From positions 23,302 to 87,301 of the IMG/VR virus record IMGVR_UViG_3300037067_011169: 64,000 nucleotides of DNA, one strand, 5' to 3'. The position numbers and the translations under genes were made by a program. This DNA is from a virus (taxonomy: Duplodnaviria > Caudoviricetes). The stretch's first letter is position 1, and every line of letters starts with the position of its first letter. Under the pieces are notes generated by a model. It worked only from the letters and a program-made list of their open reading frames with translations, made no database searches and had not been told where the DNA came from. Shown one piece after another: positions 3,623 to 58,344 of this stretch.

Positions 3623-4618
3623 CTATCTCCTGAACTGTGGCCTGGCCATTTTGGCGAACATGTCCTCTTCGAGCGATCCGTCAGATTGAAGTGCCACCAC
3701 TTTCTTTTCCAGATGTTGGCAGAGGACATCACTCTCCTCTCTGGACAGATCGGAGAATATCCAGCCGCTCGTAATTGCCGTCCAGCACTCTTGAGCCTGC
3801 GTCAGCACGAGATTCTGGTGCGCACTACTGATGCGCCCTCGATGTTGAGCAATACGAAGTAGGGGATACCCTTCAGGCATCGCTTTCGATACGATCTCGT
3901 CAATGAAGGCAACGACCTCTTCGTCGCCGATCTGTTCACCGAGCAACCAACCGTACTTGCACAACTGGTCGGCATATTCAGTGTTGCCGGCTTCCAGGTA
4001 GGTTTCGCATATCTCCAGACCGTGATGATCGTAGGGCATGTACTCGGGATGACACTTCATGTGTGTCCGACTTGGTTTGTAGGGCTCTCCGTAGCCGTCC
4101 CTGCACAGGCGAAACAGCTTTGAGGGGCTCGCGCTGTACTTGGAACAGAACCCCTTGACTTTCCAATCGAGGATGACGTGGACGCCACACTCGTGGACGA
4201 AACGACAGTCAGGTTTTCCAAGGAAGGGCACCCCTCCAATCTCGCCTGTGACCTCGAACTCGAAACGGGGAGTCTCTTTGGACTTTTGAAGCATCTCCAG
4301 CAGTTCATCAAAAGCACCCGTGAGCCGATAGCAGTCAAATACATACTGACCGGCCGCGAGCGAGAAGTCACGATTGTGCGGTTCCACCTGCGTCTCGAAG
4401 ATGGTCTGGAACTCGAATGCCGGGTCCGTCCCCTTCCCGAACAGGCGTTCATGCAAGGCCGATTTGGCATAGGCATCAAAGGATGCGCCAATCGACATGT
4501 AGTTTTCTTGAGCAATCTTGGGGGCCCTGGTTTCCGCCAGGTGGCACATGTAGAACTCTTCCTTGTTCTTGCCCCAGAGGGACAGGGAAGAGTGACTAAG
4601 ATACTTGGGAGTTCTCAT
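3623..4618 (-). CDS. PD-(D/E)XK nuclease superfamily protein
   Basis: GKPD...ILDWK motif spacing and a QL..Y-like motif. Confidence 0.6.
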   Translation of the reverse strand: MRTPKYLSHSSLSLWGKNKEEFYMCHLAETRAPKIAQENYMSIGASFDAYAKSALHERLFGKGTDPAFEFQTIFETQVEPHNRDFSLAAGQYVFDCYRLTGAFDELLEMLQKSKETPRFEFEVTGEIGGVPFLGKPDCRFVHECGVHVILDWKVKGFCSKYSASPSKLFRLCRDGYGEPYKPSRTHMKCHPEYMPYDHHGLEICETYLEAGNTEYADQLCKYGWLLGEQIGDEEVVAFIDEIVSKAMPEGYPLLRIAQHRGRISSAHQNLVLTQAQECWTAITSGWIFSDLSREESDVLCQHLEKKVVALQSDGSLEEDMFAKMARPQFRR

Positions 4619-5084
4619 TCAGCGCCTCGTTGGATATGACATAACGGCCTTCGTAGTCTTCCGCAATGGACCACCCCTTGAGCCTGGATCGGCAGAATGG
4701 AATGATGATACGAAGATTGGATATCAGTCTCGGGTCGTTTAGGGCTTGATGGAGATCAGACCAGAAGACGACTTCATCAGTGACCGTGGTTGCGCCCTTC
4801 TTGTTGCGTCTTGGATTGATCGCACAGTCACAGACGTAAACGAGATACTCCTGACCGCCATCAATTGTTCCCAAGAGCATCACGTCTGAATCATTGCACT
4901 TCAGACCAGTTTCCTCAAACAACTCTCTGACAGCAGCTTCATGGACAGTCTCGCCTTCTTCCACAGCCCCTCCAGGCAGATTGTATAGACCTGCTTGCCA
5001 CGCCGGCCGCCGCTTCTCAATCAGCAAGACCTGATTCGGATACCCGTAATCAGGAGTAACATGACATAAGACGTACTCGTTCAT
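4596..5084 (-). CDS. NUDIX hydrolase
   Basis: GGAVEEGETVHEAAVRELFEETG fits the Nudix box. Confidence 0.95.
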   Translation of the reverse strand: MNEYVLCHVTPDYGYPNQVLLIEKRRPAWQAGLYNLPGGAVEEGETVHEAAVRELFEETGLKCNDSDVMLLGTIDGGQEYLVYVCDCAINPRRNKKGATTVTDEVVFWSDLHQALNDPRLISNLRIIIPFCRSRLKGWSIAEDYEGRYVISNEALNENSQVS

Positions 5085-5608
5085 TCAAGCATTTCCTCAA
5101 TTCGCTCTTGCAGGTAGACGACCACGTCGTCCACGTACCCCATCCCTGCATAATCATTCCACTCGCGCGGACACCAGATCGCGGCCCCACCAACACGGTG
5201 GAACCCAGCCACATTGGCTTTGTCATCATCAATCAACAACGTTCTGGCATTCGCACACCAAGCCTTGTCGATCGTCAGTATGTACCGTCGTGCGTACTCC
5301 GGCATTTGTCGCTGAAGCCACGCGATCTTTCCATCCGCTGATCCTTGGACCGGGGCTGGTTTCGTGCAGACGATGACGTTTTCGGAACCAACCATCCTTT
5401 CGCACATGTCAAGGATGCGTTTGCCATCGTGCATCCAAGGCAAGGTCTCCCACCACTGCAAGTTGGTATCCTTCCACAACTCGCTCTCCGGTGATGGGAA
5501 ATACTGCTGCCTTATCGTTGTCAGGTAATCCCATTTCTTGTGCTCTGACACCGCAGCGTGGAGGTTGACCAATACCCCGTCCATGTCGAGAAAGATTTGC
5601 TTACTCAT
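5081..5608 (-). CDS. HAD-family 5'(3')-deoxyribonucleotidase
   Basis: IFLDMDGVL, K..W, LLIDD motifs. Confidence 0.85.
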   Translation of the reverse strand: MSKQIFLDMDGVLVNLHAAVSEHKKWDYLTTIRQQYFPSPESELWKDTNLQWWETLPWMHDGKRILDMCERMVGSENVIVCTKPAPVQGSADGKIAWLQRQMPEYARRYILTIDKAWCANARTLLIDDDKANVAGFHRVGGAAIWCPREWNDYAGMGYVDDVVVYLQERIEEMLE

Positions 5609-6680
5609 TGTCCGTCCCACCTTTTCTCGCTAGGTAATCAGCGCTGACGCTCTTCAGAATCAGACGACCACCAGTGGGAGCATAGAACTGTTCGCGCCAG
5701 GGTGTGATGACACATCCTTCTCGATCCTTGAATGCGGACTTGATTTCATCTGGACTAGCCAACGTCGTGGGACCATACGTGTATTGGTCAATCAGGCCCT
5801 GATGGAAGGGGCCCTCATAGAGTACAGGAACTGTGTCCACGTTGAACTTCCGGCAAAGAAGTTTCACGAATCCCCAGTCGAGATACTGCCCATCGACACT
5901 GATGTCAAAGACGCGATATGCCCGATGGACACCGTAGTCCATATCTTGGACACCATGACCGTAGATTTCGCCGAAGACAATGGCTGACCGTTTGTTGTTC
6001 TCTTCGTTGCAAAGGTGTGTAAGGAGATTGAGGATACGTTCGTCCTCAAGAGGTTCCCAGTAGATCGAGTGGTACCCTTCTGTGGGACGGCGTCTCCGCG
6101 TCCGATGGGAGCCAGCCATGAACTCAAAGGTCTCGTCATCAACCCGGATCAGCCCTACCCGACTGTTTGTTCCGTGAATCTTCTCCGTGATCCGAACTGG
6201 CATCCCACACGGAAAGGCATCGTTGTGCTTCCAGAAGTGCTCGATAGTCGTGTACTTGTGGAACAGACTAACTTCTGGAGCCAATTCCCCATCCGTCAAC
6301 CGAGGTGGGGCAACGTATTGCTCGGCCTGATATGCTTCGGAGACATCAGACCCAATCGGTTGATCGGCCAAGAACTCTGGGACAGGCACGATGAATCCAT
6401 AACTTGGTTCCTGTCGGAGCCGGCACGCCGCGACACGACAGGGACATTTCTGGCCCTGAATTGTCCCGTGTTTCAGATAGTTCTGAACCTCCAACTTCTG
6501 GCTGACTTCGGGTGGGATCAGGATGTCAGGTGGGAAGAAGACAACATGCTGTTTGGCTACGAATTGTCCTTTGGGAACCAACGTAGGAAGACTGTTGACA
6601 ATGGCGATCTCAAGTCGATCCGCATTGGGATGCGGTTTGATCTCTGTGATCTTGGCGATTTCAACGAACACTGTTGACAT
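5601..6680 (-). CDS. RNA ligase, DRB0094/Rnl5-like family with N-terminal OB domain
   Basis: IKPHPNADRLEIA N-terminus, TEKIHGTN (motif I), VFGEIYG, VFDI, EGCV, ILKSVS. Confidence 0.88.
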   Translation of the reverse strand: MSTVFVEIAKITEIKPHPNADRLEIAIVNSLPTLVPKGQFVAKQHVVFFPPDILIPPEVSQKLEVQNYLKHGTIQGQKCPCRVAACRLRQEPSYGFIVPVPEFLADQPIGSDVSEAYQAEQYVAPPRLTDGELAPEVSLFHKYTTIEHFWKHNDAFPCGMPVRITEKIHGTNSRVGLIRVDDETFEFMAGSHRTRRRRPTEGYHSIYWEPLEDERILNLLTHLCNEENNKRSAIVFGEIYGHGVQDMDYGVHRAYRVFDISVDGQYLDWGFVKLLCRKFNVDTVPVLYEGPFHQGLIDQYTYGPTTLASPDEIKSAFKDREGCVITPWREQFYAPTGGRLILKSVSADYLARKGGTDNE

Positions 6681-6702
6681 AGGAATAACCTTCACGTATG
6701 GA

Positions 6703-6900
6703 CTAGGACTGCGTTTGTGCGAAACTGTCAAGGGCCTTCGTCAGTGCCAGACCACAGATCGCCATGTCCTGGTATTGCCCCTCCGGCATCCTGGCAATGA
6801 CCTCAAGAGCCGAGGGCAGTTGCATCAAAGTATCGAAGTTCATCCTATCGATGGTACCCAGCGCGTCTCGCCAAGCGGTGAACTCACTGATGCCTGGCAT
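6703..6900 (-). CDS. Hypothetical protein
   Basis: Short ORF between the two ligases; start uncertain (6900 or 6975). Confidence 0.45.
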   Translation of the reverse strand: MPGISEFTAWRDALGTIDRMNFDTLMQLPSALEVIARMPEGQYQDMAICGLALTKALDSFAQTQS

Positions 6901-6922
6901 CGTGCGCGAGCTAATATGCAGC

Positions 6923-8008
6923 TTATTCTTCGTTCCTTTGCCGCCAGAAGCGGGCTTCTTTTGGGATGTTGTCATCTGTCAGTTCCCTAAATTTGAATGT
7001 GACGATTTGGCCGAGTGTGAAGTGCCTCCCAGCGAAAGACGAGGGCATGTCTTCCCCGGGATGCTTTGCCGCGATATCGCTCATTTCGGGGTTGAGGAAT
7101 TCTCGCTCTTCATCTGTCAGACCGGAAAGTTCAAGTCTCTTACCGTCATAGTCCAGGATGAGAGCACCAATCTTCCCCCTTAAACGGCTGCCCTTGTCCG
7201 TCTCTCTACCCGATGTGAAACCGACTATGGTTCCCTCTGCATCCTGGAATGGTTTGTACTTCAGGATGCCCCGGTGCCGTCTAGGAGTCCACGTACTGAG
7301 TGGGTCCCGCACGATGCACCCCTCGCCACCCTGCGTCAGGACCTTATCAAGAAAGCCCTCCATGAACTGTCGTGCGTCTTCTTCTGTCTCTGGCAATCGC
7401 GTCTGTTGGTGAAGAAATACAAACTCGTTCTGAGCTTCCAATGCGCCACGAAGGAACATCAACTCATCATTGAACGTGGCCGGGGGATTCAAGTGCATGT
7501 ACCCAGGAAGTAACCTGGCTGAAAACCACTTCTGAATCTCCTCCAACGTGAACGTCATGGTCATATTGGCGTTCTTGATTTCGCCAGAGCCGAAGAGGTA
7601 CTCCGGTGCAGGCGCACTGTAGACTGCGTAACTGACCAGATGGAAACGAGGGTCGGGCGTGTCGCCAGCGCAAATGCTTCGGCAGAGTTGGAAGTTACCT
7701 CTGCCGGCCCATAGTTCTCCATCCAGGGGACACGCCGGCAACGCATTCAGAAATTTGTCTGGTGCGATGATCGGATTGCCGTAGCGAGACCACAAACCCG
7801 TGGCGAGAGGTTTCACCTTAGCCTTCGGTGTCCCCGTTTTCGGGTCTGTGATGTTCGCCCAGGGAACCTCCGTCGTCCTCATTCCGCGAGTGACTCCGCC
7901 GTCCCAAAAGCATCGGGTGCCATCCAGTTTTTCGCTGATGAGATAGCCGGCGATCTTGTGTTTTGCTGGGTCATACGTCTCAGCCAGTTGCAGGAATTCA
8001 CGCTTCAT
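6923..8008 (-). CDS. ATP-dependent DNA ligase (minimal phage type)
   Basis: SEKLDGTR, LDGELW, GGEGCIVR, LKYKP, C-terminal OB fold; likely start ATG 8008. Confidence 0.93.
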   Translation of the reverse strand: MKREFLQLAETYDPAKHKIAGYLISEKLDGTRCFWDGGVTRGMRTTEVPWANITDPKTGTPKAKVKPLATGLWSRYGNPIIAPDKFLNALPACPLDGELWAGRGNFQLCRSICAGDTPDPRFHLVSYAVYSAPAPEYLFGSGEIKNANMTMTFTLEEIQKWFSARLLPGYMHLNPPATFNDELMFLRGALEAQNEFVFLHQQTRLPETEEDARQFMEGFLDKVLTQGGEGCIVRDPLSTWTPRRHRGILKYKPFQDAEGTIVGFTSGRETDKGSRLRGKIGALILDYDGKRLELSGLTDEEREFLNPEMSDIAAKHPGEDMPSSFAGRHFTLGQIVTFKFRELTDDNIPKEARFWRQRNEE

Positions 8009-8288
8009 CGATGTATCTTTCGCAGTATTGGTTGATGGTTTCACTAAAATCCGCGACGTAGCTTCCCGCGCATCCGGCTGCCAGAACGATCCATGGGTTG
8101 GTTCCGAAAAGCGCCAAACCCAAAATGACACCACACCAGAAGCCACAACACTGATAGCACTCGAAGATGCCATAGTAGAGTAGTCTTGGAAGATGGGCCT
8201 CAGCGAAGGCATCTACCGTATCCATGATCCTTCCGTTGATGATGATGCGAGTCATTCCGATGACAGCAAGAAGGAAGAGCCAGATCAT
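7998..8288 (-). CDS. Small membrane protein with CxxC (DUF1360-like)
   Basis: Hydrophobic segments and ECYQCCGFW. Confidence 0.55.
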   Translation of the reverse strand: MIWLFLLAVIGMTRIIINGRIMDTVDAFAEAHLPRLLYYGIFECYQCCGFWCGVILGLALFGTNPWIVLAAGCAGSYVADFSETINQYCERYIDEA

Positions 8289-9133
8289 ATTGGTAGCTCC
8301 GTTAAGTTCCTGGTTACGTGTCCGTCAGTCCAATCGAATACACCGACGCTCCCGTCGAGATCGATCCGAACGAAACTATTCACGGCTTCAGCCCAAGTAC
8401 CACAGTTGTAGAGCCGGCCCTCCACCATGCCGGGTCGATGGGTGTGGCCTGTAATGATGATGTTCTTCCCTCCATCCTGAACCAGGTCCTGATTCATCTT
8501 CCTGAATCGGTCTGGCTTTCCGCAGATGCGATGCCACAGGTCAACAAGCCGGTCCATGCGACCTATGGTCTTACTCTCAACAGTTCGATATTTCCCAGCC
8601 ATTGGACTTCCGTTTCTGTCTTCTTTCAGACCAGCGTAGATAGCAGTGATTCGTCCGATGCCGGGGGCGTTGTTCGCACAGTACGGATCAGCCTCATGGC
8701 CATGGCTGATACGGAAGTTCTTCCCGGCCACGAAGAGGTTCGCGGCCATGCACATGCTGTCAAAGAAAGGATGGGGAAGCCATGTCTCGGCCTGGCCGAT
8801 GAAATAGTAAAGGTCCGCATCATGATTTCCTAGAACGTACACTGCACGCATCGCTTCAAAGCGATCGAACAGCCATTCGCTCTCAGTCAGCACCTTGCTG
8901 ACGTTGTTTTGCCATAGCTCCAGTAAGTCGCCGGCAATCACCAGACGACCGTTCTCTCGGTCAACGTGATCGAGAAAACCAAGGAACTGCTGTTCCCGGT
9001 GGCCCACCGCGAAATTGTCCCGAGCGCCGCCGGCACCTTTGTGGATATCACTGACGACAAAAAAGGGGCCGTTTCTATCACGGCCCTGCGGATGATCGAT
9101 GAATCGATTCATCGCTGCGAGTTGGTTAAGCAT
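8285..9133 (-). CDS. Calcineurin-like metallophosphoesterase
   Basis: SDIH, AGD, GNHD, SHGH, GHTH, NCG motifs. Confidence 0.88.
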   Translation of the reverse strand: MLNQLAAMNRFIDHPQGRDRNGPFFVVSDIHKGAGGARDNFAVGHREQQFLGFLDHVDRENGRLVIAGDLLELWQNNVSKVLTESEWLFDRFEAMRAVYVLGNHDADLYYFIGQAETWLPHPFFDSMCMAANLFVAGKNFRISHGHEADPYCANNAPGIGRITAIYAGLKEDRNGSPMAGKYRTVESKTIGRMDRLVDLWHRICGKPDRFRKMNQDLVQDGGKNIIITGHTHRPGMVEGRLYNCGTWAEAVNSFVRIDLDGSVGVFDWTDGHVTRNLTELPI

Positions 9134-9506
9134 GTTCCACTCCGAATGCTGGAAGTTGTTCTTGAACCTGGGCGAGAACCATCGACGCATCCAGATTGCG
9201 TTGGCCGTCAATCGCCATGTTCAATTCGTCGAGACCGATAATGCCCAACTGGCACGCCCGAATCATGGCGATCGTCTTGACTAAGTCTTCTCCACAGACA
9301 TCCTTGTAGAGCATCCAGAGTCGTGATCCATAGATGCCATACTCATCAAGGAAACAGAAGACACCGATCGACCCCAATAGGTTGTCCGGGTCAATAGACT
9401 CTGCTCTTTGAAGAGTCTCCACGAGCACGCGAATCGCGCCCGGGAGACCCTCGGAGAGTGTGTAGATGACATCTTGTACGGTGTCGGAAAGCTGAATGCG
9501 GGTCAT
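9126..9506 (-). CDS. Hypothetical protein
   Basis: GGAG RBS, ATG 9506, operon fit. Confidence 0.65.
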   Translation of the reverse strand: MTRIQLSDTVQDVIYTLSEGLPGAIRVLVETLQRAESIDPDNLLGSIGVFCFLDEYGIYGSRLWMLYKDVCGEDLVKTIAMIRACQLGIIGLDELNMAIDGQRNLDASMVLAQVQEQLPAFGVEHA

Positions 9507-10022: not shown

Positions 10023-10037
10023 ATTGTCTCCTCCAAG

Positions 10038-10110
10038 AGCCAGCAGTGGGACTCGAACCCACAACCTGCTGATTACAAATCAGCGGCCCTTCCTGTTGAG
10101 CTACACTGGC
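10038..10110 (-). tRNA. tRNA-Thr(UGU), no encoded CCA
   Basis: GCCAGTG-TA-GCTC/GGGC D arm, GCTGA-TTTGTAA-TCAGC anticodon arm, GTGGG-TTCGAGT-CCCAC T arm, TGCTGGC-T. Confidence 0.93.
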
Positions 10111-10551: not shown

Positions 10552-11093
10552 CTGACTAAATGTGTCATGGCATCATAACCATGAAGCGAATTCCACGGCC
10601 TTGGCAACAGGACTGCCTGTCCACCTCGCTGCCGAAACTCCTCTACGTTCTCATCCCGATCGTCAATCAACAGCGACGAAGGTCTCGCACAGACGTGCTT
10701 GGAAGGACCAATCAGAAACTGCCGGCACATTTGAAAGGGTGCATTCCGCTGAATCCATTCGAGCTTTCCTGCGAGGGATTCAGGGCTGATCGTTGGTGAG
10801 GAAAGGAAATGCACATTCGTCAGTCCAACGAGGTTTTCACAGAGTTCTAGCAATTCAGGGAATTCAGTCGTGACTGGTATAGTCGCCCACATCTCCCTGG
10901 TGATTGCACCAAAGAAGGTCGCGGGAGTGAATCGGTTGTAGCCGCTGAGGAGGTTGGCCGCTGCAACGATATCCCATCCACACTCAACCGGATACTCGGA
11001 CTCATCCTTGAACGGCACGCCAAAGGAGGTCAGCAGATGGTACTGCGTCCTCGCGCATACGCCGTCGATATCCAAGAGAATCGTGTCAATCAC
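10536..11093 (-). CDS. Second HAD-family 5'(3')-deoxyribonucleotidase
   Basis: ILLDIDGV, GKLEWI, LLIDD; paralog of 5081-5608; GTG 11093. Confidence 0.82.
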   Translation of the reverse strand: MIDTILLDIDGVCARTQYHLLTSFGVPFKDESEYPVECGWDIVAAANLLSGYNRFTPATFFGAITREMWATIPVTTEFPELLELCENLVGLTNVHFLSSPTISPESLAGKLEWIQRNAPFQMCRQFLIGPSKHVCARPSSLLIDDRDENVEEFRQRGGQAVLLPRPWNSLHGYDAMTHLVSCLGG

Positions 11094-11757
11094 TGAGCGC
11101 CTCCCATCTCGTCTTGAACCTATCAAAAACAGCATTCCGGGCTTTGAGAATGTTCAGCCTGTGCATTCCCAACATGTTCCCGATCTCTGTATCCGTGTAA
11201 CCTTCCAGGTACATGCCGATGATGGAACGATCTAAATCCCCTTCACAGGACGCAAATAGTTCCTCTCGAATCTCGATTGGCCGATGGAAGTCTCGTTCCT
11301 TCAGCCGCGAGAACGCAGTCTTCTGAGTTTTGGGCCCAACGAAGCAGGGCTTGTCGATTGGCTTTTTGGCTTCTCGCGCTTTCTGCTGTGTTCGCTGAGG
11401 TATCTTGATGGTTGATTCCTCGTCCGCATCCTTCGTCATTGCCTGGTCGATGACCGTGTAGATATACCCTGTAGGGTTCACCTTCTCTGCATCCTTGGAG
11501 TCCTGCATACTCGTGACTGCTTCACACAGGCCACCGAGGGCTGCCGAGATGAGGTCCTCTCGGTAGTGAGACATGTTAGGACATTTGCGCAAGTAGGCAT
11601 TGACTCGGATGATGACGAGTCCCATGTTGCCTTCGATCATTCGCTGCCTGGCGCTGCCATCTCCATGGATCAATTGTTGGTATAGTTGGTAGTTTTCCTC
11701 TCTCGTCAATGATTTTGCGCATCCCGCTGCCTTACACCGTTCCAACAGATTCGTCAT
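11086..11757 (-). CDS. Sigma-70 family RNA polymerase sigma factor (alternative, FliA/SigB-like)
   Basis: ARQRMIEGNMGLV and EDLISAALGGLCEAV (region 2); EGYTDTEIGNMLG HTH (region 4). Confidence 0.8.
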   Translation of the reverse strand: MTNLLERCKAAGCAKSLTREENYQLYQQLIHGDGSARQRMIEGNMGLVIIRVNAYLRKCPNMSHYREDLISAALGGLCEAVTSMQDSKDAEKVNPTGYIYTVIDQAMTKDADEESTIKIPQRTQQKAREAKKPIDKPCFVGPKTQKTAFSRLKERDFHRPIEIREELFASCEGDLDRSIIGMYLEGYTDTEIGNMLGMHRLNILKARNAVFDRFKTRWEALSD

Positions 11758-15728: not shown

Positions 15729-16123
15729 TTCACCGAAGGCTTAGGTGTAAAAATCTTGTAGCCGTCCTCGTCGTACCGTAGATCACCATAGTACCGCTCA
15801 TCCAAGGCTGTCATCTTCTCTTCCTCTTCGAGGCTGTACCGTTCGAGTCGCTCCTGGGCATCCCAGGCTCTCAAGGCATCACGCATCGTATCGAACAACC
15901 CAAGATGGGTCCCGAGGAAGTAGCACTCGAACTGATCTGCCACTTGAGTGACGCCCTGCCCAAAGGGAATCAATCGATGACATCTGGGCGCAGGAACCCT
16001 AGTCCCGGCTCGCAAGGCTTCCCGGATATCATCAATCTCCTCTTGCTCTAACCTGTATACGACCCGCCCACCGGGCAATGTGATCGGATACATGAATTCG
16101 TGTTCATAGGTGCCTAACATCAA
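15725..16123 (-). CDS. Hypothetical protein
   Basis: GAGG RBS, ATGA overlap with polymerase. Confidence 0.65.
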   Translation of the reverse strand: MMLGTYEHEFMYPITLPGGRVVYRLEQEEIDDIREALRAGTRVPAPRCHRLIPFGQGVTQVADQFECYFLGTHLGLFDTMRDALRAWDAQERLERYSLEEEEKMTALDERYYGDLRYDEDGYKIFTPKPSVK

Positions 16124-16145
16124 ACAGACCTCACAGGTGAATAGA

Positions 16146-16268
16146 TGACGACCGACAGGACTCGAACCTGCATCACCCGCTTAAATGGCGATAACGCTGT
16201 CCAGTCGGCCCAGAGGGGCAAGAAGCGGACAGCAGTATTAGGTGCTCTGCCGTTAAGCTACGGTCGTC
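16146..16268 (-). tRNA. tRNA-like gene (Lys-like) with a 50-nt insertion in the anticodon arm
   Basis: GACGACCG/CGGTCGTC acceptor plus A, GCTT-AACGGCA-GAGC D arm, GCAGG-TTCGAGT-CCTGT T arm; removing 16191-16240 gives CCCGC-CATTTAA-GCGGG. Confidence 0.75.
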
Positions 16269-16332
16269 GTGTGAACAAGAGATGGGTGATTCAAGGTCAT
16301 CAAAGGTCATCCAGGGACCATCCACTCTTCCT

Positions 16333-16366
16333 CTATACATACAACGCAAAAGATAGTGATTGTGGA
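16333..16366 (-). promoter_or_regulatory. Possible degenerate copy of the 39-bp motif, upstream of the tRNA-like gene and polA
   Basis: CCACAATCACTATCTTTTGCGTTGTATGTATAG resembles GAACAATTT-N7-TTCTGCGCTACTGTATTAG. Confidence 0.35.
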
Positions 16367-17164
16367 CTACAATTTACCCATCTTTGCCAAAGAAATATCC
16401 TTGTCCAATTCCTCATCAGTGATATAACCCGCAAACCACGCCCCGAACCGTGTAGTCAGACCACCCAGGCCCTCTCCCAACAACTGGCTGATTCGTTGGT
16501 TCACTTCCTTCTTGGTTCGTCGGAAGCGAAATTTCCTTCGGAACTTCGGGGTGACAAATCGTTTCTTCCTGGTCTTCCGTGCGCCAATGAGTTCCTTCGC
16601 CGCCACGACCTGTTCTTCTGGAGACAGGGTCACAAGAATCTCGACATCCAACATCGTCAACATTCTCGCTGCTACCTGCTTCTGAATCTGCTCGGGGAGC
16701 TTGAGTAACCTAAGCCGTTGATGGACCCAGCGGGTATTCCGTTTCACCTCTTTACTGATAGTCTTCAGGCTTGCGCCCTCGGGGAAGAGTTTCTGAAGTG
16801 ACTTAGCCTCCTCCAAAGGATTCAAGTCCTTCCGCTCAAGGTTCTCAGTCACGTTGAGAATCTCCGCGCCTCGATCTGTGAGACCTATTCGGATGTTCGC
16901 CCGAATTGTCTTCCACTTCAGGAAATGCTTCACGGCGTCCAATCGACGAAAGCCGGCGACCAATCGATATTTGGTGGGGAAGTCGATCTGACTATCCTCC
17001 CTGCGCTGGAGAACCACTGGGAACTCCAACCCTTCCGCCTCGATGCTCTCCGCAAGATTCCGAATCGACTCTGGTAGAAAGGTATCACGACAATTGAATG
17101 ATGGATCGACCCAGATGTCCTTTATCGGGACCTCGTATACGTCATATTCTGTCAAGCGTTCCAT
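16367..17164 (-). CDS. ParB/RepB/Spo0J family protein
   Basis: LAESIEAEGLEFPVVL, LVAGFRRL, ENLERKDLNPLEEA, followed by HTH. Confidence 0.9.
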   Translation of the reverse strand: MERLTEYDVYEVPIKDIWVDPSFNCRDTFLPESIRNLAESIEAEGLEFPVVLQRREDSQIDFPTKYRLVAGFRRLDAVKHFLKWKTIRANIRIGLTDRGAEILNVTENLERKDLNPLEEAKSLQKLFPEGASLKTISKEVKRNTRWVHQRLRLLKLPEQIQKQVAARMLTMLDVEILVTLSPEEQVVAAKELIGARKTRKKRFVTPKFRRKFRFRRTKKEVNQRISQLLGEGLGGLTTRFGAWFAGYITDEELDKDISLAKMGKL

Positions 17165-17179: not shown

Positions 17180-17252
17180 CTGCGTCACCTGGTCTCGAAC
17201 CAGGAACCACCGCATTAACAGTGCGGCGCTCTACCAATTGAGCTATGACGCA
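17180..17252 (-). tRNA. tRNA-Asn(GUU), no encoded CCA
   Basis: TGCGTCA-TA-GCTC/GAGC, CCGCA-CTGTTAA-TGCGG, CCTGG-TTCGAGA-CCAGG, TGACGCA-G. Confidence 0.95.
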
Positions 17253-17543: not shown

Positions 17544-18863
17544 TCATTCTCCTAAGTACAACGGACCTACTTCACGGCCCCCATCGATGATGTATCTTGA
17601 TGGGCCATCTGACTCATTCGGACTCTTCAGCTTCACCTTCATCCGCCATGTTATCCCATGCTTCGGATTCACCCCATGGAGCCACTGGCTTGGTTCCTGA
17701 TAGGCCGACAACTTGTTGTAGACGAACGAATCCGTCCCAATCCATGAGCCGTTGACCACCAATTCACCATCGACATCAGAAAGGGAACTTGCTACGTGGT
17801 GGTGCCCACAGCAGAAGTATCTGCACCGCAATGTATTGGCAGCCGCCCCCAGAGCAATCAAACCCTTCTGACGACGCACCATTCCATACCAGGGAACGCC
17901 ACCATTGGACTGCGCATCATCCCCGTGACTGACGTTGAACCCAACCCCGTTGATATTGAGATTGGCGCTCCAAGCGTTTGGAATTAGGAACGACACGTTA
18001 TCCAGCGCCCGACAGTTGAGGCGGGCAACTTCCGCAACGAGATAGTCCCAGTTATCTTGGGCCCCGAGATAGTCCTTCTTTGGCGTGCGCCTACCGTGAT
18101 TGCCTGGTAGATACAGTACGTTGATCTGGTCAAACTGAGATGCCAGGTCACGATACATGAGCGCATGAAGTTGGCCGATCGCCAGACAGTTCTTGAACTG
18201 ATTACGATAGTAGCTCCGTTCACATGCTCGATGAATCTCCCCGCTGCTGAAGTCGCCATAAGCGAGAATCCACAATACTGGGAAATAGAACTGCGGAGCA
18301 AGCGTGTTCTTCCAATCAATCACCGTGTCAACGTAACGCTCGGCCCGACAGCAGGATGTCAAAAAGGTATGATCCTCCAAGCCACCCACCTCTTCGGGAC
18401 GAACCACCTGGTCATGGTGACCATCCGAAAGGTGCATGACGCAGTGCTCAACGATGCAGGATTTACTCCCCTTCTTGATCTGCTTCGGCAGCGCATGATA
18501 GGGGCGTATCCGTGTATCCATTTCACCCACGATTGCGTGAAACAAACCCTCATTCTTTGCGCTCGCCTTGTTCTTTGCCCGTTCCCTATTGCGCTCCTCA
18601 GTCAGATGGATCACTTCTGCTTCCAACTCACGAATGCGCTTATCAGTAGCATCATAGTTCTCAATGGGCTTCCGCTGTCCGCCTGGTCGTTTTGGAACAG
18701 GCTTCTTATCGGGCCATGGAATTGCCTTATGACTTCGCTCGGTCGCAATGTCGCTTATCGCTGATCGACTCACGCCATATTTCTCTGCAATCGCCCTCTG
18801 GGTCAAGGTCGTCCCAAGGTCCGCTTTGATCTTCGTTACGATATCAACGCTCAGTGTCGCCAT
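17544..18863 (-). CDS. HTH plus coiled coil plus metallophosphoesterase domain protein
   Basis: N-terminal TQRAIAEKYGVSRSAIS HTH; SDGH, GD, GNHG, SHGD, GHHH, NGS motifs. Confidence 0.8.
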   Translation of the reverse strand: MATLSVDIVTKIKADLGTTLTQRAIAEKYGVSRSAISDIATERSHKAIPWPDKKPVPKRPGGQRKPIENYDATDKRIRELEAEVIHLTEERNRERAKNKASAKNEGLFHAIVGEMDTRIRPYHALPKQIKKGSKSCIVEHCVMHLSDGHHDQVVRPEEVGGLEDHTFLTSCCRAERYVDTVIDWKNTLAPQFYFPVLWILAYGDFSSGEIHRACERSYYRNQFKNCLAIGQLHALMYRDLASQFDQINVLYLPGNHGRRTPKKDYLGAQDNWDYLVAEVARLNCRALDNVSFLIPNAWSANLNINGVGFNVSHGDDAQSNGGVPWYGMVRRQKGLIALGAAANTLRCRYFCCGHHHVASSLSDVDGELVVNGSWIGTDSFVYNKLSAYQEPSQWLHGVNPKHGITWRMKVKLKSPNESDGPSRYIIDGGREVGPLYLGE

Positions 18864-18871
18864 GTGTTCTC

Positions 18872-20866
18872 CTACGCCACGTATTCCTCAAGAATCGTAT
18901 TGGTGTCGTCCCCATCTATGTCAAGGGAGTCTTTGAATTCGCCTAGCGTCATCAACTCCAGTCGTCTGTTCTCCTTGATTACTTCCAGCACCCGTTCGTC
19001 GGTAGGCAAATGAATCAGGTCCACAATCTCACAACCGAGATTGACATCCATCCCCTTACGGTGAATGCGGTCTTCTGACTGAGTACGATATTCCGGCTTG
19101 AAACTATTGGACCAATAGACCGCCATTCGAGACTCAGTGAGAGTAAGACTCAGACCGCCAGACTCTGGATGTGAGACGAATGCCACCCTCGCGTTTTCCA
19201 TGTCCGCCCAGAATGCCAACGCATTCTCGCCATCGTTGGTGATCGCATCGCCTTCGTGAGATGTAACCTCAAATCCACGGCCGTCACATCGCACTACAGC
19301 CCAACCTTCTCGATGGCAGATATTCACGATCCGATCAATGCTGCCCGTGAAGCCGGCGAAGATGACGATGCGTCCCGTTTCCTCGCATTCGTCAAGCAAC
19401 TTACGAAGCGCTTGCTCTTTCGGACAAGCAATCTCCCTCGTAGTTCTGACAATGTGGGCAACCTTCCCCTTGCCTTGACACCGTGGGCATTCTGTTCGGC
19501 GCTTCTCCAAACGCGCTACAAACTCCTCATCCAAGAAGTCAATCGCGCTGTAGGTGGCGTCCGGGTCCACGGGATCATACCACTCATCCACCTCGCCACA
19601 ACTATCCTGACAGTGGGGACAAGGCACCTCGCCAGATTCAACGTCCCTGTACTGAAACCCATCACTGAGTTCTCGCAACAGCGTCAGTCCGGTAATCGTA
19701 TTCGGGGCGATGTCCATAATGCTTCCAGCAGCCCGAAGTACACTGGAATGCGGTTTGCAGATAATCTTGCGATATCGTTTGTCGGGTAGTTGTAGACAAT
19801 CCTTCTTGTGCTTGATTACGACCAGACCTTTCAGCCGTTCGTACATGTAAGCAATCTCATTGATGCTGGGCTCAAAAGCATGATTGTCCTCAGAGGCCAA
19901 GCATTCATGACATGGTGCATCCTCAAACGCTCCGCACTGTTTACATCGCCGCTCGTCATCCTTCCAAGCCACTCGCCTCTGAAAACTGCCTGTGCCATAA
20001 TCCTCCATAACCAGAACGCAGCACCTTTGCTCAAGAGCTTTCCTACTTCCCTCTCTAAGGAAGCCAGGCCAAGCGATCTCACATTGACTCCACCAGTCGA
20101 GGGGTGACTTCGGAGACGGGGTACCACTCATCTCGATTACGAAGCCTTGGAAGCCATAACGTTCTCGAATCAAGTCTGCAAGCGCTTGGGCCGCGATCGA
20201 TCGTTGACTCGCATCGTTCTTCAATCGACTGGACTCATCGAAAATGACACCCTGGGGAATCTCGCTTTCCGAGGTCCACTCGGACATGCGACTCTTCAGT
20301 TCCTCATAAGTCATGAACTCAATCTGAATTGGGCCGGAGAAGTCGAATCCCCACTTCTTGAATTCCCGGCGAATGTAGGGCAAGGAAGTCTTTGGCCCTA
20401 CCCACCACCACCGTAGCACCTGGCTGTGCTCAATCACCATTTGGGCAGCGAGGGATTTCCCTGTACCCATCTCGGCTGCCCAAATTTGATAATGGAAAGT
20501 CAGACCGGAATCTGCCATCTCAAACTGATGCGCCATAGCAGCAGTGGGCACACCATTACATCGAATTTCCCCATAGTCGTAGTGCTGTATGTCTCGATCG
20601 AACCACGCATACACGTCCTCTCCCATGAGGAAGCCGAGTTGGAAACGATTGCGTGGACAATCGGAAATGCTCCAAATCTTCCTTCCATCTTCATCATCGA
20701 ATCCATGCCAGTGGGAGCCTGTCATGGCCTTTATCTCATCCTTGAGACTAAACGGCGATTTCAGGAAGTAAATGCGTCCATCTGTATATTCCAGAGTAGC
20801 AGCAGACCGAATGAGTTTGCCAGATGAGGTACGAGTAGTCAGTTTGCAATTCACAATCTTAGACAT
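18872..20866 (-). CDS. SNF2-like SF2 helicase with zinc-finger insertions
   Basis: EMGTGKS, IFDES, SGTP, GGLSLTL, QSEDRIHR. Confidence 0.88.
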   Translation of the reverse strand: MSKIVNCKLTTRTSSGKLIRSAATLEYTDGRIYFLKSPFSLKDEIKAMTGSHWHGFDDEDGRKIWSISDCPRNRFQLGFLMGEDVYAWFDRDIQHYDYGEIRCNGVPTAAMAHQFEMADSGLTFHYQIWAAEMGTGKSLAAQMVIEHSQVLRWWWVGPKTSLPYIRREFKKWGFDFSGPIQIEFMTYEELKSRMSEWTSESEIPQGVIFDESSRLKNDASQRSIAAQALADLIRERYGFQGFVIEMSGTPSPKSPLDWWSQCEIAWPGFLREGSRKALEQRCCVLVMEDYGTGSFQRRVAWKDDERRCKQCGAFEDAPCHECLASEDNHAFEPSINEIAYMYERLKGLVVIKHKKDCLQLPDKRYRKIICKPHSSVLRAAGSIMDIAPNTITGLTLLRELSDGFQYRDVESGEVPCPHCQDSCGEVDEWYDPVDPDATYSAIDFLDEEFVARLEKRRTECPRCQGKGKVAHIVRTTREIACPKEQALRKLLDECEETGRIVIFAGFTGSIDRIVNICHREGWAVVRCDGRGFEVTSHEGDAITNDGENALAFWADMENARVAFVSHPESGGLSLTLTESRMAVYWSNSFKPEYRTQSEDRIHRKGMDVNLGCEIVDLIHLPTDERVLEVIKENRRLELMTLGEFKDSLDIDGDDTNTILEEYVA

Positions 20867-23577: not shown

Positions 23578-23616
23578 ACTAATACAGTAGCGCAGAAAAC
23601 GATAAATTGTTCCAAT
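23578..23616 (-). promoter_or_regulatory. Conserved 39-bp motif copy A
   Basis: ATTGGAACAATTTATCGTTTTCTGCGCTACTGTATTAGT upstream of the leftward replication operon. Confidence 0.7.
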
Positions 23617-23708: not shown

Positions 23709-23747
23709 ATTGGAACAATTTTCTTCGTTCTGCGCTACTGTATTAGT
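23709..23747 (+). promoter_or_regulatory. Conserved 39-bp motif copy B
   Basis: ATTGGAACAATTTTCTTCGTTCTGCGCTACTGTATTAGT upstream of the primase. Confidence 0.7.
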
Positions 23748-58305: not shown

Positions 58306-58344
58306 ACTAATACAGTAGCGCAGAAATGGAAAAATTGTTCCAAT
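58306..58344 (-). promoter_or_regulatory. Conserved 39-bp motif copy C
   Basis: ATTGGAACAATTTTTCCATTTCTGCGCTACTGTATTAGT upstream of the virion operon. Confidence 0.7.

What the first reader, a model, noticed from the sequence alone, without database searches (positions are those of the whole stretch)
16146..16268. tRNA-Lys-like gene with a 50-nt hairpin inserted into the anticodon stem
Seen: intact 8-bp acceptor (A discriminator), D arm and T arm, but the anticodon arm carries an insert (16191-16240). The insert folds as TAAT/GTTA 4-bp helix, 3-nt ACT bulge, GCTGTCC/GGACAGC 7-bp helix and a nested GCCC/GGGC hairpin. Exact removal restores CCCGC-CAUUUAA-GCGGG (UUU anticodon but A at position 33). 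An alternative two-cut reading gives TCCGC-UUCUUAA-GCGGG (Lys CUU). Known: a helix-bulge-helix geometry resembles archaeal protein-spliced intron motifs, though the outer helix of a full BHB is missing; the insert is far too small for a group I intron; tRNA-Lys is the target of the anticodon nucleases PrrC and PARIS. Inference: it is a spliced tRNA, a nuclease-resistant or decoy tRNA mimic, or a decayed gene.
Basis: partly seen in the sequence, partly recalled or inferred. Interest (0 to 1): 0.8.

Follow-up and report, generated by a model that had tools for sequence, protein, structure and literature searches.

The report
tRNA-shaped Y RNA of phage Ro60
The "tRNA-Lys with a 50-base insert" is most likely not an intron-bearing tRNA but a complete tRNA shape carrying the docking helix of a Y RNA, a partner RNA for the Ro60 ring protein that this phage encodes; I found no description of this layout in the papers I could search.

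Summary
On the minus strand, 16268-16146, lies a full cloverleaf with a 50-nt hairpin (16240-16191) splitting the 5' strand of the anticodon stem.

The insert is a loop-closed Y-RNA module. It has the Ro60-binding helix UUGCCC/GGGC[C]GA with a bulged C, a second stem, and the GUUAUC motif.

The phage encodes a Ro60/Rsr protein (TROVE + Ro60 vWA) 20 kb away. Two more tRNA-form elements and two ordinary small Y RNAs precede that gene.

The positional counterpart in a related phage sits in a Y-RNA array directly before rsr.

A model built only from eight such elements of other phages finds this one at 91 bits; ordinary tRNAs score 47-48. Covariation supports every helix.

Compared with known YrlA the topology is reversed: open acceptor ends, capped Ro helix, and a real anticodon arm (CAUUUAA, with A33).

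The class is common. It occurs in at least 18 of 71 viral rsr loci and about 40 of 80 bacterial or MAG rsr loci.

I found no splicing signals or enzymes, but excision is not excluded. Function is inferred.

This scan has noted the same class on other DNA.

Verdict: a new variant of a known kind.

The parts
16146..16268 (-). Whole tRNA-shaped Y RNA gene (123 nt)
   Evidence: Rfam tRNA model 40.6 bits. Leave-one-out family model R3 91.2 bits, E 3.6e-22.
16261..16268 (-). Acceptor stem, 5' strand (GACGACCG), including an 8th pair G-1:C73
   Evidence: Sequence. All 8 acceptor pairs covary in the family, and the 8th pair forms in 19 of 20 phage elements.
16244..16258 (-). D arm (GCUU-AACGGCA-GAGC)
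   Evidence: The D stem is 100% paired in the family alignment.
16241..16242 (-). C27 C28, the outer part of the anticodon stem 5' strand, before the insert
   Evidence: They pair with G42 G43 (16177-16176). The parser restores a 5/5 stem.
16191..16240 (-). 50-nt inserted Y-RNA module: basal UAAU/GUUA helix, stem 2, internal loop and capped Ro helix
   Evidence: Modules of 48-50 nt sit at positions 27/28 or 28/29 in 7 other type-a elements of other phages (52 nt, after position 26, in an eighth).
16205..16221 (-). Ro60-binding helix UUGCCC-CUCU-GGGC[C]GA with bulged C, closed by a tetraloop
   Evidence: It matches the Y RNA consensus stem (Rfam Y_RNA and sbRNA alignments). The pair next to the bulge is GC in 12 and AU in 8 elements.
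16226..16234 (-). Stem 2 of the Y module, 5' strand (UGCUGUCCG)
   Evidence: It pairs with 16195-16203. All 8 modelled pairs of this helix show changes on both sides.
16195..16203 (-). Stem 2 of the Y module, 3' strand (UGGACAGCG)
16190..16195 (-). GUUAUC motif, shared with animal Y RNAs, nematode sbRNAs and the phage's small Y RNAs
   Evidence: Rfam consensus lines. Nearly invariant in alignments A1 and A3.
16176..16190 (-). Anticodon-like hairpin CGC-CAUUUAA-GCG plus G42 G43 (UUU 'anticodon', A at position 33)
   Evidence: The stem covaries between orthologs (CGC/GCG, CCG/CGG, CAC/GUG). The same CAUUUAA loop occurs in the distant phage locus L019:4277-4399.
16155..16171 (-). T arm (GCAGG-UUCGAGU-CCUGU)
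   Evidence: 100% paired in the family.
16147..16154 (-). Acceptor stem, 3' strand (CGGUCGUC); an unpaired A follows at 16146

Best explanation
The gene encodes a tRNA-shaped Y RNA. A complete tRNA body (acceptor, D, anticodon and T arms) carries a loop-closed copy of the Y-RNA stem as a fifth arm. That arm emerges from the 5' strand of the anticodon stem and binds the Ro60/Rsr ring protein.

Inferred mechanism:
- The RNA is cut out of the leftward transcript by the tRNA end-processing enzymes.
- The extra arm stays in the mature RNA and docks the phage's own Rsr.
- The tRNA body, including a genuine-looking anticodon loop, then acts as the effector or tether end, as proposed for the tRNA-like domain of YrlA. 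It would bring Rsr, and perhaps the RNase T-type exonuclease whose gene overlaps rsr, to proteins or machines that recognise tRNA.

Shown here: the sequence and structure identity of the module, its covariation, its co-occurrence with rsr, and the family.

Inferred, not shown: Rsr binding, retention of the arm, processing, and the partner of the tRNA end.
For: 1. The insert has the Y-RNA signature: UUGCCC/GGGC[C]GA with a bulged C, a second stem, then GUUAUC. The order is that of a Y RNA stem read 3' strand first. The phage's own small RNAs with the same motifs match the Rfam sbRNA model (the nematode homologue of Y RNA, by my knowledge), and a related phage's also match Rfam Y_RNA.

2. The phage record encodes Rsr (TROVE + vWA_Ro60). 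Its best solved relatives are animal Ro60 at 409-417 bits. Upstream of rsr lie two more tRNA-form elements and two small Y RNAs.

3. Synteny. A related phage has ParB-like | tRNA-form a, b, two small Y RNAs | rsr | 131-aa ORF | PolA. The window has ParB-like | this element | 132-aa ORF | PolA.

4. A leave-one-out model, built from elements in rsr loci of other phages, scores this element 91.2 bits. The window's ordinary tRNAs score 47-48.

5. Covariation over 20 distinct elements: 86.9% of cells are paired against 36-47% for slid controls, and 30 of 39 pairs changed on both sides. Against the positional ortholog there are 7 double compensatory changes and 71% identity.

6. Sister elements of types b and c carry the same module but have no anticodon loop left if it is removed. 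In L066 the same junction occurs in open-ended YrlA topology, where it cannot be an intron.

7. A related phage record without TROVE has no such element.

8. The class is frequent in rsr loci: at least 18 of 71 viral and about 40 of 80 bacterial or MAG loci.
Against: This copy is 20 kb from rsr, outside the 4-kb neighbourhood used to define YrlA.

Exact removal of the insert restores a perfect 5-bp anticodon stem and 7-nt loop. That is what an intron would also do, and the phage does encode an RNA ligase.

Ro60 binding to a helix capped by a loop, rather than ending in free termini, has not been shown for any Y RNA that I know of.

The related phage record that lacks both rsr and the element is only 77% complete.
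Confidence: 0.82

Rival explanations
1. Intron-containing tRNA. The 50-nt module is excised and the halves are ligated, giving a decoding tRNA-Lys(UUU)-like molecule. Ro60 might bind the precursor only.
For: Exact removal restores a 5/5 anticodon stem and a 7-nt loop here and in 8 relatives. Across 35 clean type-a elements the loops keep the tRNA pattern: U33 in 32 and a purine at position 37 in 33. The phage has an RNA ligase near phosphoesterase genes.
Against: - There is no bulge-helix-bulge motif; the junctions are flush with the stem.
- Neither a tRNA splicing endonuclease nor RtcB was found in the phage record.
- Types b and c, with the same module, would have no anticodon loop after excision.
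- The same junction exists with the RNA termini in the module (L066).
- This copy has A33, which is unfavourable for the anticodon U-turn (established tRNA knowledge).
- The phage already has a standard tRNA-Lys(UUU).
- The 8th acceptor pair is conserved among the phage elements, which is unusual for elongator tRNAs.
Confidence: 0.1
2. Decayed relic. The element was left behind when the rsr/Y-RNA cluster moved 20 kb away and no longer functions.
For: It is the only tRNA-form element in this genome that is not next to rsr. It has the atypical A33.
Against: All 40 modelled pairs are intact. There are 7 double compensatory changes against the ortholog at 71% identity. Every conserved Y motif is retained. 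Related phages also keep solitary elements far from rsr. The same CAUUUAA loop recurs in a distant phage.
Confidence: 0.04
3. A chance tRNA-like fold, or an assembly artefact that joins a tRNA gene to unrelated sequence.
For: It comes from a single metagenomic contig, and no read support could be examined.
Against: The same architecture was assembled independently in dozens of contigs from different samples. The leave-one-out model gives E 3.6e-22.
Confidence: 0.01

Closest known systems
YrlA (Y RNA-like A; Rfam RF02553) of bacteria and actinobacteriophages (Chen et al. 2014, PMC4201824; Wang et al. 2018, bioRxiv 10.1101/312249)
   Same: A Ro60/Rsr partner RNA that joins a Ro-binding stem to a tRNA-like D arm, T arm and acceptor helix. 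The Ro stem leaves the tRNA body at the anticodon-stem position. It is encoded on the same strand as rsr, and it is found in phages.
   Different: YrlA has its 5' and 3' ends in the Ro stem and a loop-closed 'acceptor'; it is described as a circularly permuted tRNA with no free CCA end and no anticodon loop. Here the ends are in an open 8-bp acceptor, the Ro helix is capped by a tetraloop, and a full anticodon arm is present. The Ro helix here keeps both strands in animal-type form. The Rfam YrlA model does not match this element. In a relative it matches only across the junction of two tandem elements.
Animal Y RNAs and nematode sbRNAs (Rfam RF00019, RF01656)
   Same: The same lower stem, UUG(N)CC/GG(N)C[C]GA with a bulged C, followed by a second stem and GUUAUC. 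The phage Rsr is closest to animal Ro60 among solved structures.
   Different: Those RNAs are simple stem-loop molecules with their termini at the Ro stem and no tRNA body.
Deinococcus radiodurans Yrn1 (Chen et al. 2014)
   Same: A Y RNA with tRNA-like T and D features in tRNA order and an 'anticodon-like' arm between them.
   Different: In Yrn1 the Ro-binding stem takes the place of the acceptor stem and holds the termini. Here the acceptor is a normal open tRNA acceptor and the Ro stem is an internal, capped arm.
tRNA genes with introns (archaeal/eukaryal BHB introns; bacterial group I introns)
   Same: A tRNA cloverleaf interrupted in the anticodon arm. Exact removal restores the arm.
   Different: There is no BHB geometry. 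At 50 nt it is too small for a group I intron. No splicing enzymes were found. The insert is a conserved protein-binding module that also occurs outside any tRNA.

Membership tests
tRNA (Rfam RF00005) | Cloverleaf with acceptor, D and T arms and conserved tertiary-contact nucleotides | tested here: met
   40.6 bits against a gathering score of 29, model positions 1-71. U8, the GG of the D loop and the UUCGA of the T loop are present.
tRNA (Rfam RF00005) | Uninterrupted 5-bp anticodon stem and 7-nt loop with U33 | tested here: not met
   The stem is split by 50 nt after position 28. The loop is CAUUUAA, with A33.
tRNA (Rfam RF00005) | Aminoacylation and use in decoding | not testable with these tools
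   No CCA is encoded. The 8-bp acceptor is atypical for elongator tRNAs.
Y RNA (Ro60-binding RNA) | Conserved bulged helix that Ro60 recognises (UUGNCC/GGNC[C]GA with bulged C) | tested here: met
   UUGCCC/GGGC[C]GA at 16205-16221. The helix is 93% paired in the family, and the pair next to the bulge is GC in 12 and AU in 8 elements. It aligns to the Rfam Y_RNA and sbRNA consensus seen.
Y RNA (Ro60-binding RNA) | A Ro60/TROVE gene in the same genome | tested here: met
   TROVE + vWA_Ro60 ORF at G000:C1 about 17795-19384(-), 20 kb away on the same strand.
Y RNA (Ro60-binding RNA) | RNA 5' and 3' ends form the Ro-binding stem | tested here: not met
   The Ro helix is closed by a CUCU loop. The only long terminal helix is the tRNA acceptor.
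Y RNA (Ro60-binding RNA) | Physical binding to Ro60 | not testable with these tools
   This needs an EMSA or co-immunoprecipitation.
YrlA (Rfam RF02553) | Match to the curated covariance model (T arm, closed acceptor hairpin, D arm, flanked by Ro stem strands) | tested here: not met
   No YrlA hit at E<=1 on 16050-16400. No gathering-level YrlA hit in 20 related rsr loci.
YrlA (Rfam RF02553) | Within 4 kb of rsr on the same strand (criterion of Chen et al. 2014) | tested here: not met
   This copy is 20 kb from rsr, on the same strand. Its paralogues, and its ortholog in L002/L012, do meet the criterion.
Archaeal-type BHB tRNA intron | Two 3-nt bulges separated by a 4-bp helix at the splice sites, plus a splicing endonuclease | tested here: not met
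   The junctions are flush with the anticodon stem, and the only bulge (ACU) is on one strand. PF01974 is absent from the phage record.
Group I intron in tRNA | Catalytic core of roughly 200 nt or more (P3-P9) | tested here: not met
   The insert is 50 nt, and no intron family was hit in Rfam.

The most novel reading that the evidence does not exclude
These RNAs are working tRNA look-alikes that carry Ro60 as cargo. They would be processed, given a CCA end and perhaps even charged. Their real, fast-changing anticodon loops would let them act as Ro60-tethered baits or sensors for host enzymes that attack or read specific tRNAs, such as the anticodon nucleases PrrC or PARIS AriB for the Lys-like UUU loop. 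The bound nuclease or the damaged tRNA would then be handed to Ro60 and the coupled exonuclease or RNA ligase. The A33 in this copy would make the bait uncleavable.

A corollary is that classical YrlA arose from tandem arrays of such elements. That matches the dimeric-tRNA origin proposed by Wang et al. 2018.
Probability: 0.18. Interest if true: 0.88.

Novelty: new variant of a known kind. Interest (0 to 1): 0.72.

Why it matters
Y RNAs tether Ro60 to effectors. What the tRNA-like end of bacterial Y RNAs is for remains open. This variant shows the tRNA end in its most complete form: open acceptor, anticodon arm, and anticodon-loop signature. That makes the question directly testable by asking whether it is cut by RNase P, given a CCA end, charged, or recognised by anticodon-specific enzymes.

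The variant is common in phages and in Myxococcota-type rsr loci. It may explain why Chen et al. found few YrlA RNAs in delta-proteobacteria after discarding hits that overlapped tRNA genes. It also gives a concrete intermediate for the proposed origin of YrlA from dimeric tRNAs.

There is a practical consequence. tRNA finders either miss these genes or miscall them as suppressor or intron-containing tRNAs.

Tried and rejected
- **Spliced archaeal-type intron.** There is no BHB motif, and neither an endonuclease nor RtcB was found.
It cuts through stem 2 and the internal loop of the conserved module.
- **ARAGORN intron mode.** It gives 'tRNA-Stop(tta) i(33,52)' here and 'tRNA-Leu(aag)' for a paralogue. 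These are forced canonical-position calls without a sensible stem.
- **Descent from the phage's tRNA-Lys(UUU).** The body shares 52 identical positions with the 74-nt tRNA-Lys, the same as with tRNA-Arg, so this is not informative.
- **Searches that gave nothing:**
  - INPHARED phages matched only the neighbouring tRNA-Asn.
  - The ParB-like protein and an exact T-arm/acceptor string found nothing in viral contigs.
  - Exact-protein look-ups for the closest PolA and for the 132-aa ORF found nothing.
  - The one metagenome scan, with GGGCCGA-N(8-12)-GCGTTATC, returned only chance matches. No element was found in 80 loci. The pattern was too short for that collection.
- **Consensus promoter/terminator scan.** Nothing beyond chance near the gene.
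- **Review papers not held.** PMC10870794 and PMC6047535 could not be read. "Not described" therefore refers only to the papers I could search.

Full report
**What is there.**

Read on the minus strand from 16268 to 16146, the stretch is a 123-nt cloverleaf. Its parts are:
- an 8-bp acceptor, GACGACCG/CGGUCGUC, followed by A;
- a D arm with GG in the loop;
- a T arm with UUCGAGU;
- an anticodon stem whose 5' strand is interrupted after C27-C28 by 50 nt (16240-16191).

After the insert come CGC-CAUUUAA-GCG-GG. Rfam's tRNA model matches end to end at 40.6 bits with the insert looped out. ARAGORN misses the gene. In intron mode it forces a meaningless 'tRNA-Stop(tta)' call. The fold is more stable than shuffles, z = -2.94.

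**What the insert is.**

The insert reads UAAUAC-UGCUGUCCG-CUUC-UUGCCC-CUCU-GGGC[C]GA-C-UGGACAGCG-UUAU, and the next base completes GUUAUC.

This is the lower stem of a Y RNA written 3' strand first, then a capping loop, then the 5' strand. The Y-RNA features are:
- the Ro60-binding helix UUGNCC/GGNC[C]GA with its bulged C;
- the second stem;
- the GUUAUC motif.

The Rfam consensus lines for Y_RNA and for nematode sbRNAs show exactly these features. The sbRNAs are the nematode Y RNA homologues by my knowledge. The small stem-loop RNAs encoded by this phage and its relatives match those models. In the own genome the sbRNA model scores 27 bits. In L005 it scores 37 bits and Y_RNA 26.6 bits. Two loci reach sbRNA gathering level.

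**The protein partner.**

The window is bases 23302-87301 of an 87-kb IMG/VR phage record. About 20 kb from the element, on the same strand, is a 529-aa ORF with TROVE and Ro60-vWA domains. Its closest solved relatives are animal Ro60 (9nen at 417 bits, 1yvp at 409), ahead of Deinococcus Rsr at 382 bits.

The rsr ORF overlaps by 4 bases the ORF of an RNase T-type DEDD exonuclease that follows it.

Directly upstream of rsr, in order, are:
- a small Y RNA;
- a tRNA-form element of 126 nt;
- a small ORF;
- a tRNA-form element of 100 nt;
- another small Y RNA.

**Synteny.**

In a related phage (PolA 76% identical, L002/L012) the order is ParB-like gene | tRNA-form a | tRNA-form b | two small Y RNAs | rsr | 131-aa ORF | 108-aa ORF | PolA. 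In the window the order is ParB-like | this element | 132-aa ORF | PolA. The flanking proteins are homologous, at 60% and 48% identity.

So this element is the positional counterpart of the first member of a Y-RNA array. In this phage the rest of the array lies 20 kb away with rsr.

Two relatives also keep a solitary element far from rsr. A relative without any TROVE gene has none, though that record is only 77% complete.

**Family and subtypes.**

Ten elements from four related phages fall into three forms.
- **Type a** (this one). The module branches from the anticodon stem after position 27 or 28, and a full anticodon hairpin remains.
- **Type b.** A 5-bp anticodon stem is kept, and the loop is replaced by the module.
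- **Type c.** The module is the anticodon arm, and GUUAU takes the variable-loop position.

For eight type-a elements from seven phage loci, looping out 48-50 nt after position 27 or 28 restores a 5/5 anticodon stem with a 7-nt loop. A ninth, L064, has 52 nt after position 26. The loops are:
- CAUUUAA here, and again in the distant L019 element;
- CUGAUAA in the ortholog;
- CUGUUAA in three;
- AUGUUAA, CUUGGGG and CUAUCCA in one each.

**Tests.**

A model built from the eight type-a elements of other phages, leaving this one out, finds it over its full length at 91.2 bits (E 3.6e-22). The two ordinary tRNAs of the window score 47-48 bits.

On a 21-row alignment (20 distinct sequences):
- 86.9% of pair cells are standard pairs, against 36-47% when partners are slid;
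- 30 of 39 pairs show changes on both sides;
- no shuffle out of 500 reaches the observed values.

This alignment is fitted to the model, so it leans towards the structure.

Three details stand out:
- The Ro helix is 93% paired, and the pair beside the bulged C is G:C in 12 and A:U in 8 elements.
- All 8 modelled pairs of stem 2 covary.
- The extra acceptor pair (-1:73) forms in 19 of 20 phage elements. It forms in only 40 of 63 elements of the wider genome-derived set.

Against its positional ortholog, identity is 86 of 121. Of the 39 pairs, 27 are unchanged, 3 changed on one side, 7 changed on both sides, and 2 are unpaired in one sequence. This argues against decay.

**Relation to known YrlA.**

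Published YrlA has its termini in the Ro stem and a loop-closed 'acceptor'. [quoted passage not shown]

The Rfam YrlA model has the order T arm, closed hairpin, D arm. In L005 it matches only across the junction of two tandem tRNA-form elements. It does not match the solitary element here.

More distant phages (L066, L032, L052, L056) have open-ended YrlA-topology RNAs with the same junction and the same anticodon hairpin. In L066 that hairpin reads GUUAUC-GCCUUUUAAGCGGG, nearly identical to this element.

So the element is the un-permuted form: tRNA ends open, Ro helix capped. Wang et al. suggested that YrlA arose from dimeric tRNAs. Tandem arrays of these elements are a concrete version of that idea.

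**How common.**

At least 18 of 71 viral rsr loci hold long tRNA-form elements.

Among the 80 best rsr loci in bacterial genomes and MAGs, about 40 hold 120-150-nt tRNA-form elements with GGGCCGN and GUUAYC. These loci are mostly Myxococcota, Longimicrobium, Armatimonadota and Chloroflexota, and include a complete Sorangium chromosome. The elements often sit inside tRNA arrays.

Of 35 clean type-a cases, 32 have U33 and 33 have a purine at position 37. They carry 24 different anticodons.

Chen et al. reported few YrlA RNAs in delta-proteobacteria, and they discarded hits that overlapped tandem tRNA genes. That could be why this form was not described.

My literature searches found no description of it. 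Two reviews were not available to me.

Earlier notes of this scan report the same class on other DNA and on this genome. I reached the Y-RNA reading before consulting them.

**Intron or permanent arm?**

Against splicing:
- there is no bulge-helix-bulge motif;
- no splicing endonuclease or RtcB is in the record, which is 83% complete;
- types b and c would have no anticodon loop after excision;
- the open-ended forms cannot be introns;
- this copy has A33;
- the phage has a standard tRNA-Lys(UUU);
- the acceptor has 8 bp.

For splicing:
- exact removal restores a clean anticodon arm;
- the anticodon loops look real;
- an RNA ligase with nearby phosphoesterase-type genes is encoded at 4596-9211.

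I put retention at about 0.7 given the Y-RNA reading. No expression data could be obtained.

**Mechanism, most likely.**

The RNA is released from the leftward transcript by tRNA end-processing. It binds phage Rsr through the capped helix and presents a tRNA body as the effector end.

What that end engages is unknown. Candidates are tRNA enzymes, the ribosome, anticodon nucleases, or the coupled RNase T-like exonuclease. The variable but well-formed anticodon loops suggest mimicry of particular tRNAs.

**Verdict.**

It is a new variant of the Y RNA/YrlA kind, widespread, and undescribed in the papers I could search.

Noticed in passing
G000:C1 19452-20140 (outside the window; L010:2161-2850, minus strand): Y-RNA array upstream of the phage rsr gene. 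In order: small Y RNA, 126-nt tRNA-form element (type b), a 96-aa ORF, 100-nt tRNA-form element (type c, no anticodon loop), small Y RNA. One small RNA matches the Rfam sbRNA model at 27 bits.
   Followed up: yes
L011:191-880 (-), directly after rsr (L011:877-2481 -): A 229-aa ORF with an RNase_T (DEDD 3'-5' exonuclease) domain overlaps the end of rsr by 4 bases. It could be a phage-encoded counterpart of the PNPase partner in Ro60-Y RNA-PNPase complexes.
   Followed up: partly
window 4596-9211 (-): A cluster of nucleic-acid end-repair genes: NUDIX (4596-5084), NT5C/HAD-type nucleotidase (5081-5620), RNA ligase PF09414 with an OB domain (5601-6731), ATP-dependent DNA ligase (6923-8212), and a calcineurin-like phosphoesterase (8285-9211). 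No polynucleotide kinase was seen.
   Followed up: partly
window 23582-23613 (-), 23712-23743 (+), 58310-58341 (-); weak copy at 16334-16366 (-): Three near-identical copies of GGAACAATTT-N7-TTCTGCGCTACTGTAT, against 0.37 expected for the core pattern. It is probably a phage-specific promoter; the phage encodes a sigma factor at 11086-11757. Only a degenerate copy lies about 66 nt upstream of the tRNA-shaped gene.
   Followed up: partly
L005:1119-1179: The Rfam YrlA model matches (28 bits) across the junction of two tandem tRNA-form elements: T arm and acceptor 3' strand of the first, acceptor 5' strand and D arm of the second. This shows how a YrlA-type RNA could arise from, or be confused with, such arrays.
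   Followed up: partly
L057:1746-1952, L071:1746-1952, L055:1749-1956, L061:1564-1770: 207-nt tRNA-form elements that seem to carry two Y-type modules in tandem (GAGCCG... and GGGCCG..., each followed by a UUAUC-like motif) inside one tRNA scaffold.
   Followed up: no
L263:4231-4356 (Sorangium sp. So ce388 chromosome) and about 40 other genome-contig loci (L205-L284): Bacterial or MAG rsr genes are flanked by large tRNA arrays that include 120-150-nt tRNA-form Y elements. Whether these loci are prophages or cellular was not examined.
   Followed up: partly
L083:1001-1125 (+) and L084:1001-1124 (-): Related phages each keep one solitary type-b tRNA-form element tens of kilobases from their rsr cluster. 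Solitary copies are therefore a recurring feature.
   Followed up: partly
alignment A5, columns 1 and 185: An extra acceptor pair (-1:73) forms in 19 of 20 phage elements and is G:C in 12, as in bacterial tRNA-His. With the 5-bp T stem it gives a 13-bp stack, as in bacterial tRNA-Sec. It is less constant in the genome-derived set (40 of 63). Its meaning is unexplained.
   Followed up: partly
G000:C1 694-1975 (outside the window), window 10037-10110 and 17180-17252: The phage has eight ordinary tRNAs: Asp, Arg, Lys(UUU), Met, Gln, Pro, Thr and Asn. The Lys-like element therefore duplicates an anticodon the phage already supplies.
   Followed up: yes
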